From contig JBCCVL010000002.1 of NCBI GenBank assembly GCA_039195375.1, positions 16,078 through 80,077 on the forward strand: a stretch of 64,000 nucleotides of DNA. Reading direction: 5' to 3'. Below are positions 22,292 through 31,337 of the stretch, piece after piece. The stretch is from Actinomycetota bacterium (GTDB lineage: Bacteria > Actinomycetota > Acidimicrobiia > Acidimicrobiales > SZUA-35). Within the stretch, counting starts at the first letter, position 1. Each line of letters begins with the position of its first letter. Both the position numbers and the translations under genes were made by a program. The notes below the pieces were generated by a model. It searched no databases. It had not been told where the DNA came from and saw only the letters and a list, made by a program, of their open reading frames with translations.

Positions 22292-22996
22292 ATGAATCGG
22301 ACCGACCGCCTCTACGCCATCGTCGAGGAACTGCGGGCATCGGCGCCGGCGTCGCAGACGGCCAGGGAGCTTGGCCAGCGCTACGAGGTGTCGACCCGCA
22401 CGATCGAGCGGGACATCCTCGCCCTCCAGGAGGCCGGTGTCCCGATCCGGGGCGCAGCCGGACGTCGGGGTGGCTACTCGATCGACCGGACGAGGACCCT
22501 CCCGCCGGTCAACTTCAGCCCGACCGAGGCCCTGGCCATGGCCGTCGCCCTGTCAGACGACACCGGCCCCTTCGCCGCCGCCGGGCGCTCGGCCCGCAAC
22601 AAGGTGCTGGCGGCGATGTCGGCCGCCGACCTGGAGGCGACCCGCACCATGGCGGCCCGGGTCCGTCGCTACCAGCGCCCGCGGGCAGGCGGCTCGCTGC
22701 CCCAGGTGCCCCTCACGGTCCAGCGGGCGATCACCGAGCAGCTCGTGGTGGCCATCGACTACCTCGACAGCCAGTCGGTCGCATCGAGGCGTGAGGTCGA
22801 GCCGGTCGGCGTCGTCGCCGTCGACGACGACTGGTACCTCGTCGGGTGGTGCCGGCTGCGCGACGACGCCCGCTCGTTCCGGCTCGACCGGATCCACGGT
22901 GCCGAGCTGACCGGCGACGCCGCCCCGGTCCGGGACCCGGACCGCTTCCTCGAGTTCCTGCCCGGCCTGCTCCAGCAGCCCGACATCTTCGGCTGA
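22292..22996 (+). CDS. YafY-type HTH-WYL transcriptional regulator (short form)
   Basis: MNRTDRL, EVSTRTIERDI winged HTH, and WYLVGWCRLRDDARSFRLDRI. Confidence 0.93.
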   Translation: MNRTDRLYAIVEELRASAPASQTARELGQRYEVSTRTIERDILALQEAGVPIRGAAGRRGGYSIDRTRTLPPVNFSPTEALAMAVALSDDTGPFAAAGRSARNKVLAAMSAADLEATRTMAARVRRYQRPRAGGSLPQVPLTVQRAITEQLVVAIDYLDSQSVASRREVEPVGVVAVDDDWYLVGWCRLRDDARSFRLDRIHGAELTGDAAPVRDPDRFLEFLPGLLQQPDIFG

Positions 22997-23024
22997 GGGC
23001 GTCCCGGCCGTATCGGGGTCGAAT

Positions 23025-23103
23025 CCCGACAGGACGGTGTCGGGGTTGACCGGGAACTTTCCGGATTCGCCGACGAGGGGCTGTCGGCGGCCTGGTTCAG
23101 GGT
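23025..23103 (+). promoter_or_regulatory. Two palindromic operators and a TGTCGG-N10-(-10) promoter upstream of the VOC gene
   Basis: CCCGACA-N6-TGTCGGG (23025-23044) and CGCCGACG-N6-TGTCGGCG (23068-23089); the second TGTCGG is followed by 10 nt and CAGGGT. Confidence 0.7.
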
Positions 23104-23161
23104 GTTGGCACGGGACCACAACGCAGCGTCCCGGTCACCGACACCAACAAGGAGTGCACCA

Positions 23162-23533
23162 ATGAGCAACACGACCCCCGCCCCCGTCGGCTGGTTCGAG
23201 ATCGCCGGCACCGACCCGGCCAGGACCGAGGCCTTCTACGGCCAGCTGTTCAACTGGACCTTCAGCGACGGGCCCGTCGGCCCCGCCTACCGGATGGCCG
23301 ACGCCGGCGACGGGATCCCGGGCGCCGTCACCACCGCCCAGGCCGGCATGCCAACCAACTACGCCATGTTCTCGGTCATGGTCCCCAACGTCGAGGCTGC
23401 GTGCCGCCAGGCGGAGGAGCTCGGCGGCAAGGTCCTGGCCGGTCCCGAGGTCCTGCCGGACGGCCTCACGTTCGCCAACGTCACCGACCCGGACGGCAGC
23501 GTCGTCGGCGTGTTCACCCCGCCGGCCGGGTAG
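23162..23533 (+). CDS. VOC / glyoxalase-bleomycin resistance family protein
   Basis: VGWFEI, FYGQLFNW, LGGKVL, DPDGSVVGVF; AAGGAG SD before ATG 23162. Confidence 0.92.
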   Translation: MSNTTPAPVGWFEIAGTDPARTEAFYGQLFNWTFSDGPVGPAYRMADAGDGIPGAVTTAQAGMPTNYAMFSVMVPNVEAACRQAEELGGKVLAGPEVLPDGLTFANVTDPDGSVVGVFTPPAG

Positions 23534-26770: not shown

Positions 26771-28234
26771 CTACCGGATCGACGGGGCCGCGTCGAGCGG
26801 CGGGAGGCCGACGGCCCAGGCCTGGTCGATGGCCCGCAGCCAGGTCACGAGGGTCGGGGCGCTCGGTGGTCCGACGGCGAGCCCCCGCACCTCGTCGATC
26901 CGGAGCATGGGCCCGCCGGGGCCCTGTCCCCAGACGACGCTCGCCAGCGACCGCTGGTCGTCCCCGTGCCCGACCGGTTCGAGCAGCGTCAGCCCCGAGC
27001 CGTCGCTGTCGGCGACCAGGCGGCCTCGTCGCTCGGCGTCCGGCGCCCGCTCGACGATGACGATCGACGTGGCCTGCCGGTCGCGGTCGAGCCGGTCGAC
27101 GAGCCACCGCTCGAACGCCGCCGGGTCGAGGTCGGCGAGGGCCCCGTCGATGACGGCGTGGTTGACGAGGTGCAGGCGGATCTCCGCCCCGCCGGCGGTC
27201 GGGTGCTGGTTCGGCAGGGCCGCGCCGAGGCGGGGATTGACCTCGGTGGCGACGAACCCGTCGGCGCCGAGCACGCCGTCGAGGGTGAACATGCCACGGA
27301 AGCCGACCCGCTCGGCCAGCACCTCGCCGACCCGTCTGGCTGCACCGACCATGGCCGACCGATCGGCCGGCGACGGATCCCAGTGGGTCGAGGCCCTGGC
27401 ATAGACGAACCGGCGGGCCGATCGATCCCGGAGCGTCATCATCTCACATGGGCGGAACGCTGCGATCCGGTCCGGGCCGACGACGAGCCCATGGATGCTG
27501 CAGGGAACCCCCTCGACGAACGGCAGGACCCGGACCCGGTCGTACGCCCCGAGCCGCTCGGCCAGGGCTGTGGCGTCGCGGTCGTCGGTGACCCAGTGGG
27601 TGCCCTCGCCGCCGCCGTGCTGGCCGGAGCGATCGTCGCCGGCCCACACCGTGCCGGACGGCGAGGCGAGTCGCCGGTGGGCGGCGAGGAGCCCGGCCCG
27701 ATCGTCGGCATCGACGATCTCGCGGGGCACGACGTCGAGCCCGGCCTCGGCCAGGACCGGTTCGATCCTGACCTTGTCCTCCAGGGCGACCCAGGGGGCC
27801 AGGCGGGGACCGAAGGTCGGTCGGCCGAGCATCGTCGCCGATCGCAGCAGGGGGCCACCGATGACGCGAGCGGCACCGGCCGGATCCCAGTCGTCGACGT
27901 CGGCCTGGACCAGCGGCGGCGGTTCGACCAGTGCCGCCTGGGCGGAATCGATCGCACCGCGGATCGTGGTTGCGGGCGGCAGGTCGATGGAGACCAGCGG
28001 CACGTCGGGGTCGAGGTCACCGACGCCTGGTCGGGCGCCGACGGCGAGCACCTCGGCGCCGTAGGCGTCCCGCAGGTGGGCGGCCAGCCCGACCGCGCCC
28101 TGGTCGACCTCGGCGGCGACGATCCAGGGGCGGCCCCCGTAGATCGCCAGGAGACGATCGACGAGCCAGCTCTCGTAGGCCGGGCCGGTTTCGCCTGTCT
28201 CGCCGGTCTCGGGATGGGGTGGGTCGCTGGCCAC
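26771..28234 (-). CDS. ATP-grasp-fold protein of unknown function
   Basis: LEDK...AGL, PFVEGVPCSIHG and FRGMFTLDG...TEVNPR (D...ExNxR signature); start moved to GTG 28234 after GGGAGG. Confidence 0.75.
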   Translation of the reverse strand: MASDPPHPETGETGETGPAYESWLVDRLLAIYGGRPWIVAAEVDQGAVGLAAHLRDAYGAEVLAVGARPGVGDLDPDVPLVSIDLPPATTIRGAIDSAQAALVEPPPLVQADVDDWDPAGAARVIGGPLLRSATMLGRPTFGPRLAPWVALEDKVRIEPVLAEAGLDVVPREIVDADDRAGLLAAHRRLASPSGTVWAGDDRSGQHGGGEGTHWVTDDRDATALAERLGAYDRVRVLPFVEGVPCSIHGLVVGPDRIAAFRPCEMMTLRDRSARRFVYARASTHWDPSPADRSAMVGAARRVGEVLAERVGFRGMFTLDGVLGADGFVATEVNPRLGAALPNQHPTAGGAEIRLHLVNHAVIDGALADLDPAAFERWLVDRLDRDRQATSIVIVERAPDAERRGRLVADSDGSGLTLLEPVGHGDDQRSLASVVWGQGPGGPMLRIDEVRGLAVGPPSAPTLVTWLRAIDQAWAVGLPPLDAAPSIR

Positions 28235-28283
28235 GGGCCCACCCTCCCACGCCCCGTCGACGAGGTTCGCGAATTCGGATCGC

Positions 28284-28928
28284 TCAGGCCGAGGCGTAGG
28301 TGGTGGCCAGCAAGCGGTCGTACATCGTGATCTCGTAGCCCTGGACCTCGACCTGGGTCGAGGCCAGGCGCCGGACCTTGTCGGCCGACGCCCAGGCACT
28401 GGCCACCGATGCCATCTCCACCCCGCCCTCGTGATGGGCCCGCATGAGCTCGAGCCAGAGCCGGCCCTTGGCCGCACCGTCGGCCGTGGACAGAGCCAGC
28501 AGCTCCTCGTCGGTGGCCAAGCCGGGCATGCCACCCCCGGCGAGATCGTCACGGCCGCAGAGGCCCATCCACGCCATGGCCGTGTCGGGCGGGGCCGTCG
28601 AGCGCCCCCAGTCGGCCAGCCACGCCCGCATCATCCCGACCTCGATCGACTGGTTCTGCAACACCTCGGCCGCCGCCGCCTGGACCGACGCCCCGGTGTC
28701 AGCGCCGACCACCCGCTGGCACAGCACGAGGGCCTGGCCGTGGTGGGTGGTCATGTCGGCCAGGAATCCGACGTCGACGTCGGTCGGCTCGGCGCTCGAT
28801 GCGGACCCGGTCGAGGCCGCGGACCGGCACCCGGTCACCGCAGCCACGCCGACGACGCCGACCGCGGCAAGCGACGACGCCAGCAGGCCCCGCCGCGTCA
28901 GCCGCACCGATCGTTCCGGATCGGCCAC
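28284..28928 (-). CDS. DUF305 (CopM-like) Tat lipoprotein
   Basis: TRRGLL twin-arginine motif, VTGC lipobox, paired MTTHH and MRAHH motifs, Q..E...M helices. Confidence 0.9.
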   Translation of the reverse strand: MADPERSVRLTRRGLLASSLAAVGVVGVAAVTGCRSAASTGSASSAEPTDVDVGFLADMTTHHGQALVLCQRVVGADTGASVQAAAAEVLQNQSIEVGMMRAWLADWGRSTAPPDTAMAWMGLCGRDDLAGGGMPGLATDEELLALSTADGAAKGRLWLELMRAHHEGGVEMASVASAWASADKVRRLASTQVEVQGYEITMYDRLLATTYASA

Positions 28929-28931
28929 CGC

Positions 28932-29975
28932 TCAGCCGTCGCCGCCGGGGCCCTGGCCGTCGCCGTCGGGCGGCGGACCCTGACCCTCGCCGCCGGGTCC
29001 GGTGCCGCCACCTCCGCCGGCGTCGGTCAGGTCGACCTCACCGACGAAGCAGCCGAGCACGTAGGGGAAGGCGTCGGTCGTGTAGTAGGCGTAGTTGCCG
29101 TCCTCGTCGATCCGGCCGTTGCACTCGTCGAGATCGCCGGATCCATCGACGTGGGTGTGAGCGGACCAGGTGTCGGTGGCGAACAGCGAGGCGTCGGTCA
29201 GCTCCCACGACGACTCGTACTGGTCGTTGCCGGTGTAGATGGGGAACCCGTCGAAGGCGTAGCCGAGCAGCTGTGGTCCGGACGCCACCTCCTCGGGCGA
29301 GAAGTCGCAGTCGGTCGTGTCGCTCGTGCCGAGCAGGTGCAGATGGAAGCCGGTCGGGCCGTTGTGGCTGCCGCATGCCATCAGGATCCCCTCGATCGAC
29401 TCGACGTCGCCTCCGGTGCCCTCGGTCGGGCCGTAGATCGGAACGCCGGCCAGGGTCACGCCGAGGGGTCCGACGAGTGGCACCGAGGTCGTCGCCGCGG
29501 CCGCCGCCGGATCCGCCGGGATCGTGAACGTGTAGTCCTGGGCGTCCGGCGGCCCGGGGCTCGTCTCGATGTAGGTGTAGTCCGGGATCCCGTTTGCGGT
29601 CACGATCACGCTCCCGCCCTCGCAGACGGCCGACGACTCGGGGTCGGGCAGGTCGGGGTTGGCACTCGGGCCGGCGACGAACGACGCAGCCACCTCCGCA
29701 CAGGAGGCACCGGACGACGCCGTCACCGTGGTGTCGTCGTCGGTCTCGGTCGTGCCGGACCCGTCGTTTTGGAGTGAGGCCGACCCGTCGTCGGCCCCGG
29801 TGGTGTCGGTGGCGTCGTCGTCGCTCCCGCAGGCGGCGGCGATCAGCGCCAGGGTGGCGGCAACCGCAGCGAGCCGGACGAACAGGGGTCGTGGTCGGCG
29901 GCCGGCGGCAACGGCCGAGTCGGCTGGGGGCGGGAGCATGGCGTCGGGATGGGGCCCGGTCATCGGAGCCGTCAC
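28932..29975 (-). CDS. YHYH-family lipoprotein, FHLH variant
   Basis: IAAAC lipobox; NGIPD, GVTLAGVPIY, CGSH...FHLH, GYAFDGFPIY, GDLDECNG, YAYYTT..FPY...C. Confidence 0.85.
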   Translation of the reverse strand: MTAPMTGPHPDAMLPPPADSAVAAGRRPRPLFVRLAAVAATLALIAAACGSDDDATDTTGADDGSASLQNDGSGTTETDDDTTVTASSGASCAEVAASFVAGPSANPDLPDPESSAVCEGGSVIVTANGIPDYTYIETSPGPPDAQDYTFTIPADPAAAAATTSVPLVGPLGVTLAGVPIYGPTEGTGGDVESIEGILMACGSHNGPTGFHLHLLGTSDTTDCDFSPEEVASGPQLLGYAFDGFPIYTGNDQYESSWELTDASLFATDTWSAHTHVDGSGDLDECNGRIDEDGNYAYYTTDAFPYVLGCFVGEVDLTDAGGGGGTGPGGEGQGPPPDGDGQGPGGDG

Positions 29976-31270
29976 CGCCCGGCCGGTGCGCCGCCCGGAG
30001 CCGGCAGCAGCGACATCAGCTCCTCGACGGTGACGCCGAGGGTGGCCGCAGCCTCGCTCAGGTCCTCGCCGGGACCGGGCAGGATGGCGAGGAGCTCGTC
30101 CTCGGACACCCCGAGGGTGGCGGCCGCCTCGCTCAGGTCGGGGGCACCGCCGCCCTGACCGGGACCACCCTGGCCGGGGGCTGCGCCCTCGTCGCCACCG
30201 CCGGCGGGCGGGCCGCCGACGCCGGCGCCGCTGACCTCGCCGTTCAGGCAGCGGGAGACGTAGGGGTAGGCGTCGGTGACGATGTAGGCGTACTGGCCGT
30301 CGATGGTGGTCCCGTTGCAGGCGTCGAGGTCGCCGGCGCCATCGGTGTAGACGAAGTCGTTGGTGTAGGTACCGTCCGGGCTGGTGCCGACCAGGTCGAA
30401 CTCGGCGTTGCCGGCCGGGCCGGAGGCGACACAGCCGGTGCCGGCCCGCTCACCGTCCGACAGGACGTAGCTCGACTCATAGGCGCCCGACTTCGAGTAG
30501 TACATCAGGTAGCCGTCGGCGGCGAAGCCGATGTGGACGAGATCCTGGTCGTCGTCGTAGGCGTCGACCAACAGCTCCGAGATCCCGTGGTAGTGGTACT
30601 CGCCGGTCGGCTGCACGTGGGCGTTGTTGAAGTCGAGGCCCAGGTCGTACAGCTCCTGGAGCGCCTCGATCCGGTAGGTCTCACCGGACGAGCAGGTGAC
30701 GGTCTCGGCCGTGCCCGGTTCGAACTTGACCCCGTTGACGGCGACGCCGGTGGTCCTGACCTCGGTGGCGGAGCCGGTGAAGGCGGCCTCGACCGGGAAC
30801 TCCCAGGTCAGGTCCTGGGCGGTGATGGCGTTGGGGTTGCCGGCGTTGGGGAACTCGCCGGTGTCGTGATCCGGCAACGCGTTGGTCTCGATCGTGCGGG
30901 TGCCGCCGTCGATCGTGACCGTGGTCATGGTGCCGAAGCCCTCGTCGACGAGGGTGTACTCGTCGACGTAGCCGGAGTCGGTCAGCGAGGCCACCGGCTC
31001 GGTGTCGGCCGCGGCGTCTCCGCCGGATGCGTCATCTTCGCCGGATGCGTCATCGTCGCCGGATGCGTCGGCATCGCCGGCGTCGTCCTGGTCGGCGTCT
31101 CCGGTCGAGTCGGCCTCGCCGCCGGTCTCGGTGTTGGCGGCCGCGGTCTCGCCGGAGCCGCCGGTGTCGGTGCTGTCGTCGCTCGATCCGCAGGCGGCGG
31201 CCACCAGCAGGATGGCGGCCAGGCAGGCGGCGAGCAGGGAACGTCGGGGGGTACGGTCGCGTGGCTTCAT
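29972..31270 (-). CDS. YHYH-family lipoprotein with C-terminal helical repeats
   Basis: PRRSLL...VAAAC signal; NALPDH, GVAVNGV, LDFNNAHVQPTGEYHYHG, GFAADG, GDLDACNG. Confidence 0.92.
   Translation of the reverse strand: MKPRDRTPRRSLLAACLAAILLVAAACGSSDDSTDTGGSGETAAANTETGGEADSTGDADQDDAGDADASGDDDASGEDDASGGDAAADTEPVASLTDSGYVDEYTLVDEGFGTMTTVTIDGGTRTIETNALPDHDTGEFPNAGNPNAITAQDLTWEFPVEAAFTGSATEVRTTGVAVNGVKFEPGTAETVTCSSGETYRIEALQELYDLGLDFNNAHVQPTGEYHYHGISELLVDAYDDDQDLVHIGFAADGYLMYYSKSGAYESSYVLSDGERAGTGCVASGPAGNAEFDLVGTSPDGTYTNDFVYTDGAGDLDACNGTTIDGQYAYIVTDAYPYVSRCLNGEVSGAGVGGPPAGGGDEGAAPGQGGPGQGGGAPDLSEAAATLGVSEDELLAILPGPGEDLSEAAATLGVTVEELMSLLPAPGGAPAGR
30002..30139 (-). repeat. Intragenic repeat, two copies with a 75-nt period
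   Basis: Encodes DLSEAAATLGVSEDELLAILP and DLSEAAATLGVTVEELMSLLP. Confidence 0.85.
31021..31074 (-). repeat. Intragenic 18-bp tandem repeat x3 (acidic linker)
   Basis: cgccggatgcgtcatctt / cgccggatgcgtcatcgt / cgccggatgcgtcggcat, encoding DASG-based units. Confidence 0.85.
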
Positions 31271-31293
31271 GGGGATCATCCTCGGCAACGCCG

Positions 31294-31337
31294 CTGAGCC
31301 CACCCTGTGAGAACGAGCACAGGTTCCTCACAGGTTC
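31294..31337. promoter_or_regulatory. Two oppositely oriented direct-repeat boxes with 11-bp phasing (OmpR/MprA-type)
   Basis: + strand CACAGGTTC-ct-CACAGGTTC (31318-31337); - strand TCACAG-N5-GCTCAG (31310-31294). Confidence 0.6.

What the first reader, a model, noticed from the sequence alone, without database searches (positions are those of the whole stretch)
26771..31337. Candidate undescribed cell-surface metal-handling module: two YHYH lipoproteins, a DUF305 Tat lipoprotein and an ATP-grasp enzyme
Seen: between relA and hisS lie two paralogous YHYH-family lipoproteins (GTGA-coupled), then after 3 nt a DUF305 lipoprotein with TRRGLL and two MxxHH motifs, then about 50 nt later an ATP-grasp gene. 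All three exported proteins have lipoboxes and His/Cys/Met motifs, and both YHYH proteins sit on long acidic tethers. Known: DUF305 includes the copper-binding protein CopM, Tat exports folded and often cofactor-loaded proteins, and to my knowledge the YHYH domain has no established function. Inference: a co-regulated membrane-tethered metal-binding or metallo-enzyme system in which DUF305 supplies or buffers the metal.
Basis: partly seen in the sequence, partly recalled or inferred. Interest (0 to 1): 0.72.

Follow-up and report, generated by a model that had tools for sequence, protein, structure and literature searches.

The report
YHYH surface protein with DUF305 partner
Two of the four genes, an unstudied cell-surface YHYH protein and a small helical DUF305 protein, form a tightly coupled pair in many related bacteria, often behind a likely regulator-binding repeat; the small protein probably carries metal to a predicted three-histidine site on the larger one, and the ATP-grasp gene is only a resident neighbour.

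Summary
The four genes, junctions and motifs are as described, but they are not one module. The ATP-grasp-like gene is a resident of the relA–hisS interval (8 of 8 loci read). A three-gene block was inserted in front of it.

The conserved unit is YHYH-2 plus DUF305. They are adjacent in 29 of 30 distinct loci of one well-supported YHYH clade, mostly with stop and start within a few bases. No DUF305 lay near 143 more distant YHYH loci. YHYH-1 is a distant paralogue (27% identity) that stands without DUF305 elsewhere.

Of 50 perfect copies in 61 genomes, 11 precede YHYH genes (about 0.03 expected) and 13 precede OmpR-family regulators. No copper-efflux gene was seen among the genes these boxes lead.

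YHYH-2 folds confidently (pLDDT 95), matches no solved structure, and keeps His3-Asp. Metal delivery by DUF305 is inferred only, and the metal is unknown. I found this pair neither in print nor in earlier scan notes. Those notes report YHYH and DUF305 with other partners on other DNA.

The parts
31317..31333 (+). TCACAG-N5-TCACAG direct repeat (11 of 12 matches), in reverse orientation to the genes; likely binding site of an OmpR/PhoB-family regulator
   Evidence: one of only 4 sites at 11/12 or better found in the 6.24-Mb genome; enrichment upstream of YHYH genes in relatives
31294..31310 (-). second, weaker copy of the repeat (10 of 12)
29972..31279 (-). YHYH-1 lipoprotein: lipobox C27, acidic tether, YHYH domain (30239-30796) with H218/H226/H228 and D252, duplicated C-terminal helical repeat (numbering from ATG 31270). 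Co-inserted paralogue, not part of the conserved pair
28932..29975 (-). YHYH-2 lipoprotein: lipobox C49, acidic tether, YHYH domain (29040-29531) with H204/H211/H213 and D242, clade-specific H273, six clade-invariant Cys. First member of the conserved pair
28284..28928 (-). DUF305 protein with twin-arginine signal and lipobox C34, two MxxHH motifs and subfamily-invariant C70. Second member of the conserved pair
26771..28234 (-). ATP-grasp-like gene, resident of the relA-hisS interval in the genus; not part of the module

Best explanation
The conserved unit is a two-gene pair, the YHYH-2 surface lipoprotein gene directly followed by a twin-arginine DUF305 gene, in which the DUF305 protein likely acts as a dedicated metal-carrying helper for the predicted three-histidine site of YHYH-2. 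Shown: the pair is adjacent and closely abutting across one YHYH clade. Here it sits with the distant paralogue YHYH-1 behind a TCACAG repeat, between relA and a resident ATP-grasp-like gene. Inferred steps: (1) a PhoP-like OmpR-family two-component system (best candidate G000:C60:7062-9280) binds the repeat and switches on YHYH and other surface-protein genes (about 0.75). (2) YHYH-2 leaves unfolded by Sec, is lipid-anchored on a long acidic tether, forms three disulfides and builds a His3-Asp metal site, working as a surface metalloenzyme of unknown substrate (site about 0.85, enzyme about 0.6). (3) The DUF305 bundle folds in the cytoplasm, leaves by Tat, binds a soft metal through its His/Met/Cys core (copper is the most likely, by analogy with CopM) and supplies or buffers the metal for YHYH-2 (about 0.45).
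For: Linkage from the YHYH side: 9 of 9 YHYH-2 orthologues recognised among 61 genomes, and 16 of 17 loci with at least 55% identity from the GTDB and metagenome scans. From the DUF305 side: 6 of 6 new loci among 401 class genomes have YHYH-2 directly upstream. After removing duplicates there are 29 pairs and one true exception, L066. In 24 of 26 pairs with a resolvable start, the gap is -8 to +3 nt. DUF305 was found in 0 of 143 more distant YHYH loci, 121 of which have at least 1.2 kb downstream. The YHYH-2 clade is one branch: 18 rows, SH-aLRT 99, long stem. It carries a fourth His in 18 of 18 rows against 5% elsewhere. H211, H213 and D242 are invariant in 143 rows and H204 nearly so. Two papers predict a metal site on these residues (passages). 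The partner subfamily keeps a twin-arginine motif (101 of 108) and C70 (108 of 108). CopM, a DUF305 protein, binds Cu(I) with KD about 4e-16 (PMC4335983 section 18). Copper- or metal-binder genes follow some other YHYH genes: CopC (L090), MbnP (L187), HMA (L126), HupE/UreJ_2 (L206, L276). Repeat at 10/12 or better: upstream of 10 of 19 cassettes (0.67 expected) and 7 of 18 other YHYH genes of the order (0.47 expected). Of 50 perfect boxes, 11 lie within 1.1 kb upstream of a YHYH domain (0.02-0.035 expected) and 13 lie 27-170 nt before an OmpR-family regulator.
Against: No binding, metal, activity or expression data exist for this pair. Most YHYH genes have no co-encoded metal helper: only 4 of the 143 distant loci showed one among the 121 non-redundant neighbours scanned. 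None of the 42 neighbours scanned from 17 loci of a second phylum was an adjacent SCO, CopC or DUF305. So the fold does not generally need a dedicated donor, and YHYH-1 itself has none elsewhere. The published predictions say zinc, whereas CopM was barely retained on Zn resin: either the metal or the donor role must differ from those precedents. The DUF305 protein scores under the CopM cut-off (57.9 against 90) and has 9 Met and 4 His against 23 and 8. Box-led genes include no copper efflux gene among those annotated. The candidate sensor's outer region has 0 His and 2 Met in 150 residues. All pairs descend from one event, so 29 of 30 is one origin, not 29. Within the window alone the repeat is not above chance (2 matches against 3.0 expected). 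The motif was first seen by eye in the 19-cassette set it was then scored on.
Confidence: 0.42

Rival explanations
1. Independent buffer: DUF305 is a CopM-like copper sponge protecting the cell surface, and YHYH-2 is co-expressed under the same stress but does not receive metal from it.
For: CopM is a periplasmic Cu(I) binder needed for copper resistance (PMC4335983 passages). The subfamily has a median of 14 Met per protein. Most YHYH genes need no partner.
Against: A general sponge would not need strict one-to-one coupling with one YHYH clade. Clustering found no recurring neighbour at 24 pair loci except a two-component system in 3. No copper efflux gene was seen among box-led genes. The protein is below the CopM cut-off.
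Confidence: 0.2
2. Redox partner: DUF305 is a ferritin-like di-metal protein (pseudo-symmetric His-His/Gln/Glu sites plus Cys70) that passes electrons to YHYH-2 or shields it from peroxide, rather than donating metal.
For: H62, Q65, Q93, E96, H166, Q196 and E199 are invariant in a symmetric pattern. Membership of DUF305 in the ferritin-like clan is recalled. Tat export suits cofactor-loaded redox proteins (established knowledge). One box leads a DUF2271-PepSY gene pair and lies just downstream of an ApbE gene.
Against: The same residues are invariant in DUF305 proteins that have no YHYH neighbour (L053-L055). No redox activity for DUF305 was seen in the papers I read.
Confidence: 0.15
3. Hydrolase plus controller: YHYH-2 is a zinc hydrolase acting on cell-wall or surface polymers, as predicted for phage tail YHYH domains, and DUF305 is its inhibitor or regulatory subunit.
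For: PMC7824862 predicts a His3-Asp Zn hydrolase (passage). YHYH domains are fused to sulfatases and carried on RTX, T9SS and lipoprotein anchors. Tight gene coupling fits a stoichiometric pair.
Against: The DUF305 subfamily conserves a metal-type core. Other YHYH lipoproteins in the same genomes have no such partner. No fold match supports hydrolase chemistry.
Confidence: 0.15
4. One reading: both YHYH proteins, DUF305 and the ATP-grasp enzyme work as one system.
For: All four genes are co-directional with short gaps here and in G024.
Against: The ATP-grasp gene lies between relA and hisS with nothing inserted before it in 8 of 8 loci read, and within 2.5 kb of hisS in 17 of 19 other genomes that have it. 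No homologue occurs in any of 160 YHYH loci.
Confidence: 0.03

Closest known systems
CopM of Synechocystis sp. PCC 6803 (DUF305; PDB 5fej, 5ffa; PMC4335983)
   Same: DUF305 four-helix bundle with two His-His motifs, exported, Met-rich.
   Different: Below the CopM model cut-off. It has 9 Met and 4 His against 23 and 8, conserved Cys where CopM has none, and a twin-arginine signal. It is paired with a YHYH gene rather than with copRS/copBAC. The closest solved sequence is the uncharacterised secreted protein 2qf9 (E 5.9e-23), not CopM (E 1.1e-7).
YHYH domain (Pfam PF14240), predicted Zn-dependent phage-tail hydrolase (PMC7824862) and predicted His3 zinc site (bioRxiv 10.64898/2026.10.18.759936)
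   Same: Both window proteins pass the family cut-off and keep the three His and the Asp.
   Different: These are cellular lipoproteins on acidic tethers, not virion proteins. The YHYH-2 clade has a fourth invariant His and a near-obligate DUF305 partner. Neither paper's passages on YHYH mention such a partner or a regulon.
M. tuberculosis PhoP binding site, TCACAGC-N4-TCACAGC (PMC4832192)
   Same: Same hexamer and 11-bp period. By position, the candidate regulator's helix keeps 4 of 6 base-contacting residues (N212, E215, Y217, Y220), with V213 as I/V.
   Different: S216 is Leu in the candidate. Orthology to PhoP was not tested. The genes led are YHYH, DUF4956-VTC, CotH, DUF1800, DUF2271-PepSY and EF-hand surface proteins; the signal is unknown.
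Extracytoplasmic metalloprotein-chaperone pairs and exported copper carriers (SCO, CopC, MbnP, anglerase-HupE/UreJ-2 of PMC12537917; Tat-exported Csp1, recalled)
   Same: A small exported metal binder is encoded beside an exported metal-site protein.
   Different: The partner here is DUF305 and the client has no solved fold. Transfer is not shown. PMC12537917's main text has no mention of YHYH or DUF305.

Membership tests
YHYH (PF14240) | HMM score over the gathering cut-off (25 bits) | tested here: met
   155.6 and 73.4 bits
YHYH (PF14240) | three conserved His plus Asp | tested here: met
   P0002 H204/H211/H213/D242 conserved in 99-100% of 143 rows; the tyrosines of the name are replaced in YHYH-2 (FHLH)
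YHYH (PF14240) | bound zinc and hydrolase activity (predicted in print, never shown) | not testable with these tools
DUF305 (PF03713) | HMM over the cut-off (27 bits) and two His-His motifs | tested here: met
   112.8 bits; H62-H63 and H165-H166
CopM metallochaperone (NF049983) | score over the curated cut-off of 90 bits | tested here: not met
   57.9 bits
CopM metallochaperone (NF049983) | very high Met/His content without Cys (23 Met, 8 His) | tested here: not met
   9 Met, 4 His, 3 Cys here; subfamily medians 14 Met and 5 His in 120 proteins
CopM metallochaperone (NF049983) | encoded with copper-resistance genes or a copper-sensing two-component system | tested here: inconclusive
   no recurring neighbour except a two-component system in 3 of 24 pair loci; neighbours were clustered, not all annotated
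CopM metallochaperone (NF049983) | high-affinity Cu(I) binding | not testable with these tools
   needs titration
Tat substrate | twin-arginine motif before a hydrophobic stretch, conserved in homologues | tested here: met
   TRRGLL; 101 of 108 parsed homologues (12 of 120 not parsed); a TatC-like gene was found by motif only
Bacterial lipoprotein | lipobox Cys after a signal peptide | tested here: met
   by motif in all three proteins and in the YHYH-2 orthologues with an intact N-terminus; only 10 of 108 DUF305 homologues have one
ATP-grasp enzymes | HMM over a family cut-off | tested here: inconclusive
   PF02655 18.5 bits against 23.2, E 0.0022; no PDB sequence hit
OmpR/PhoB regulon with a PhoP-type box | tandem repeat with 11-bp period, enriched upstream of genes and of the regulator itself | tested here: met
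   50 perfect boxes against 15 for the reversed control; 11 before YHYH domains; 13 before OmpR-family regulators
OmpR/PhoB regulon with a PhoP-type box | binding by the regulator and signal-dependent transcription | not testable with these tools
   needs a binding assay and RNA data
any solved fold (for YHYH-2) | structural match over most of the domain | tested here: inconclusive
   best VIA Z 4.2, rmsd 3.6 over 56 residues; see Tried and rejected

The most novel reading that the evidence does not exclude
YHYH-2 is a surface copper enzyme of a fold with no solved structure. It is loaded by a dedicated DUF305 carrier that takes up copper in the cytoplasm and exits folded through Tat. YHYH proteins would then be copper enzymes rather than the predicted zinc hydrolases, with different lineages recruiting different copper helpers. 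They would also be the main output of an undescribed PhoP-like surface regulon in Acidimicrobiales.
Probability: 0.2. Interest if true: 0.75.

Novelty: new variant of a known kind. Interest (0 to 1): 0.5.

Why it matters
YHYH is a widespread family with no solved structure and no measured activity. It occurs in bacteria, archaea and an oomycete and is reported from phages and diatoms. A near-obligate DUF305 partner and a short operator with a candidate regulator give two direct handles on it: which metal the partner carries, and which signal turns the genes on. The partner subfamily also occurs in named species (Sanguibacter antarcticus, Serinibacter salmoneus), which may offer a culturable system. 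It would also give DUF305 a role beyond copper buffering.

Tried and rejected
Complex prediction of the YHYH-2 domain, the DUF305 domain and Zn gave no verdict: scores 0.33, 0.22 and 0.16, mark 0.32, controls not folded. It is not used as evidence either way.

No RNA holder was listed for the region; this is no evidence on expression.

The first fold, with 9 sequences, failed (pLDDT 41). The 143-sequence fold succeeded. With it, Foldseek found no PDB match at E<=0.001 and VIA-align found none at Z>=5 among 48,161 chains. That shows neither a different nor a new fold.

No PDB sequence hit was found for YHYH-1 or the ATP-grasp-like protein. The ESM Atlas returned only YHYH clusters for YHYH-2 and only DUF305 clusters for the partner. 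The sigma-70 promoter and terminator scan found nothing.

A recent tandem duplication of YHYH is rejected: 27% identity and opposite sides of the tree. The ATP-grasp gene as a member is rejected.

A family-wide need for a copper chaperone is not supported.

The position-weight scan mixed in TCTCAG-type repeats (C34, C49, C4). I do not count these in the regulon.

Literature searches: 'YHYH' as a whole word (36 papers, 4 relevant), 'YHYH protein/domain', 'DUF305' (33 papers), 'DUF4956/VTC/CotH'. No paper appeared in both the YHYH and the DUF305 listings. Subscription journals are largely missing from the library and no supplements were read; the neighbourhood tables of PMC12537917 may bear on YHYH partners.
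Full report
Observation. The four ORFs, their junctions (GTGA overlap, 3 nt, 49 nt), lipoboxes, TRRGLL, the two MxxHH motifs and the acidic tethers are in the sequence as described. Pfam names YHYH-1 (155.6 bits), YHYH-2 (73.4) and DUF305 (112.8). The ATP-grasp label is below cut-off. The genome holds four YHYH genes and one DUF305 gene. Titled records of the same order indicate an Acidimicrobiales bacterium.

The ATP-grasp gene is not part of it. It was found in 20 of 61 genomes, 18 of them among the 24 other genomes of the genus. It lies within 2.5 kb of hisS in 17 of the 19 other genomes that have it. In 8 of 8 loci read, the order is relA, this gene, hisS, with nothing inserted before it. 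No homologue occurs in 160 YHYH loci. Only the window and its closest relative G024 have the three other genes in front of it. The three-gene block is therefore an insertion into a resident interval.

YHYH-1 is a co-inserted paralogue. It is 27% identical to YHYH-2 but 55-74% identical to YHYH genes of relatives that have no DUF305 beside them. It falls on the other side of a 143-row tree (quick method, midpoint root). This is not a local duplication.

The conserved unit is YHYH-2 plus DUF305. Among 61 genomes, all 9 YHYH-2 orthologues I recognised are directly followed by a DUF305 of 58% identity or more. Only hits with fetched DNA were checked by sequence. In G009 the pair spans two overlapping contig ends, in G020 YHYH-2 is frameshifted, and in G006 and G031 it is cut by a contig end. 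Scans of GTDB genomes and metagenomes kept the best 80 loci each, of 511 and 487 confirmed. Of the 17 with at least 55% identity, 16 have DUF305 downstream. None of the 143 more distant loci has one, and 121 of those have at least 1.2 kb of downstream DNA. The exception, L066, is real: a convergent gene follows.

The link also holds from the DUF305 side. Six of 6 new subfamily loci among 401 class genomes have YHYH-2 upstream. A phylum sample of 401 genomes added no further subfamily member, only one hit at 38% that I did not examine. Without duplicates this is 29 of 30 loci. In 24 of 26 pairs with a resolvable start the gap is -8 to +3 nt, and 12 of them are 4-nt overlaps. The linked YHYH domains form one branch (18 rows, support 99), so this is one origin. 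The pair sits at unrelated genomic sites with no recurring neighbour except a two-component system in 3 of 24 loci. It also occurs in a Granulosicoccaceae record (L099).

Anatomy of YHYH-2. With 143 sequences, AlphaFold2 gave pLDDT 94.9 and pTM 0.92 for a mainly beta, loop-rich domain. H211, H213 and D242 are invariant and H204 is present in 142 of 143 rows. Six Cys and an extra His (H273) are in 18 of 18 clade rows, and H273 is in 5% of the rest. Three disulfides are my inference from the six Cys. I could not measure distances in the model. PMC7824862 predicts a His3-Asp Zn site and a tail-associated hydrolase, and bioRxiv 10.64898/2026.10.18.759936 predicts a His3 zinc site and calls the family uncharacterised (passages). 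PMC7029224 and bioRxiv 10.1101/2024.06.08.598090 mention the domain only in passing (passages). Longer relatives are fused to sulfatase, PEBP, RTX and T9SS domains.

Anatomy of the partner. It belongs to a large subfamily: the best 120 of 445 hits are 60% identical or more. Of 108 parsed, 101 have a twin-arginine motif and 108 have the Cys equivalent to C70. Ten have a lipobox, and 91 have a second Cys 14 residues earlier, which 9 of the 10 lipobox forms lack. It resembles CopM but is not a CopM by the curated model or by Met/His content. CopM binds Cu(I) tightly and was retained on Cu and Ni but hardly on Zn or Co resin (PMC4335983, section 18 and passages). bioRxiv 10.1101/013581 models it as a four-helix metal sponge (first part of the text).

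A TCACAG-N5-TCACAG repeat lies at 31317-31333, with a weaker copy at 31294-31310. In the window alone this is not above chance (2 against 3.0). Across genomes it is. At 10/12 or better it precedes 10 of 19 cassettes (0.67 expected; this is the set in which I first saw it). It also precedes 7 of 18 other YHYH genes of the order (0.47 expected; 18 of 21 scoreable, including the window's own YHYH-1) and 3 of 43 scoreable distant loci out of 143 (0.87 expected). Sixty-one genomes hold 50 perfect boxes against 15 for the reversed control. Eleven lie within 1.1 kb upstream of a YHYH domain (0.02-0.035 expected), and 13 lie 27-170 nt before an OmpR-family regulator.

The candidate regulator. In this genome 4 sites reach 11/12: this operon, the regulator at C60:7062, an ABC exporter and one intragenic site. 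Orthologues of the C60 regulator or its kinase flank YHYH genes in other genomes. The motif equals the published M. tuberculosis PhoP consensus, and the C60 helix keeps 4 of 6 base-contacting residues by position (PMC4832192 passages and section 8). Other box-led genes are DUF4956-VTC, CotH, DUF1800, DUF2271-PepSY, an EF-hand lipoprotein and SHOCT proteins. No copper efflux gene was among the 56 proteins annotated, which were a chosen subset of the box-adjacent genes. The sensor's outer region has no His. I read this as a surface-protein regulon; calling it envelope stress rests on recalled knowledge of such gene sets.

Mechanism. The most likely reading (0.42) is a lipid-anchored YHYH-2 metalloenzyme with a dedicated, Tat-exported DUF305 metal carrier, switched on by a PhoP-like system. 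The pairing, the coupling, the conserved residues and the enrichment of the repeat are shown. Regulator binding, the metal site, enzyme activity and metal transfer are inferred. Against a general need for a helper, only 4 of 143 distant loci showed a copper- or metal-binder neighbour among 121 non-redundant neighbours. None of 42 neighbours scanned, of 102 called, from 17 loci of a second phylum was an adjacent SCO, CopC or DUF305. Rivals are an independent copper buffer (0.2), a redox partner (0.15), a zinc hydrolase with inhibitor (0.15) and the four-gene module (0.03).

Novelty. Both families are catalogued and the logic of an exported metalloprotein with a helper is known. I did not find the YHYH-DUF305 pair or the YHYH regulon in the searches listed or in earlier scan notes. 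Those notes report YHYH with SCO, anglerase or DUF6702 partners and DUF305 with His-lined propellers, on other DNA. They moved me towards the helper reading but are unchecked leads. PMC12537917 (abstract and passages) and PMC4520260 (passages; its hits were DUF3050, not DUF305) added nothing on the pair. Searches were seen as search listings only. Verdict: a new variant of a known kind, interest 0.5.

Noticed in passing
window 29990-30140 (-), YHYH-1 residues about 378-424: Two tandem copies of a short helical repeat at the C-terminus of YHYH-1. A similar tail ends a YHYH-2-type protein (P0014) and the YHYH gene of L056. No Pfam hit.
   Followed up: no
DUF305 subfamily, P0125-P0244: A Cys 14 residues before the invariant Cys is present in 91 of 108 parsed proteins but missing in 9 of 10 lipobox-bearing forms. 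Unexplained; related sequences are not independent.
   Followed up: partly
L099:6001-7307 and L142: The pair in a Granulosicoccaceae record nests among actinobacterial rows in a 6-row branch with support 100, suggesting transfer of both genes together. No test of clade or direction was run.
   Followed up: partly
G000:C34:4458, C49:21505, C4:45424: TCTCAG-type repeats with 11-bp period upstream of a lipoprotein-ABC exporter operon, a DUF418 membrane protein and a lipoprotein. Possibly a second regulator; the likeness to the MprA box is recalled.
   Followed up: partly
L247, L255, L256, L264, L266: A near-identical perfect box about 30 nt before the same gene in five genomes of the genus. The gene is probably rho, judged from recalled sequence and gene order, not tested.
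   Followed up: no
L071, L082-L085, L182, L184, L187, L202: Proteins of 220-300 aa, most with lipoprotein-like starts, directly downstream of YHYH in Myxococcota, Binatota and metagenome loci. No Pfam or NCBIfam hit; some are followed by cytochrome c or MbnP genes.
   Followed up: partly
L242, L244, L259, L261: DUF4956-VTC and CotH genes flank perfect boxes in four genomes, and a Cthe_2159 gene lies upstream of the pair in L045. This links YHYH regulation to a possible polyphosphate or surface-polymer module.
   Followed up: partly
L050:9067-9939, L068:3710-4395: YHYH-2 is frameshifted in these two loci (assembly error or decay). In L050 the DUF305 also has His-Tyr in place of the first His-His.
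   Followed up: no
window 26771-28234: The ATP-grasp-like gene is nearly genus-specific (18 of 24 other genus genomes, 1 of 36 outside) and fixed between relA and hisS, with no solved relative. Its function is open.
   Followed up: partly
window 22292-23533 (+): A regulator gene (HTH-WYL type by recalled features) and a small VOC-like gene lie opposite to the aspS-rarA run, also in G024.
   Followed up: no
P0020, P0030-P0068: YHYH fusions: two YHYH domains in one lipoprotein (P0020), and many sulfatase-YHYH and some PEBP-YHYH proteins.
   Followed up: no
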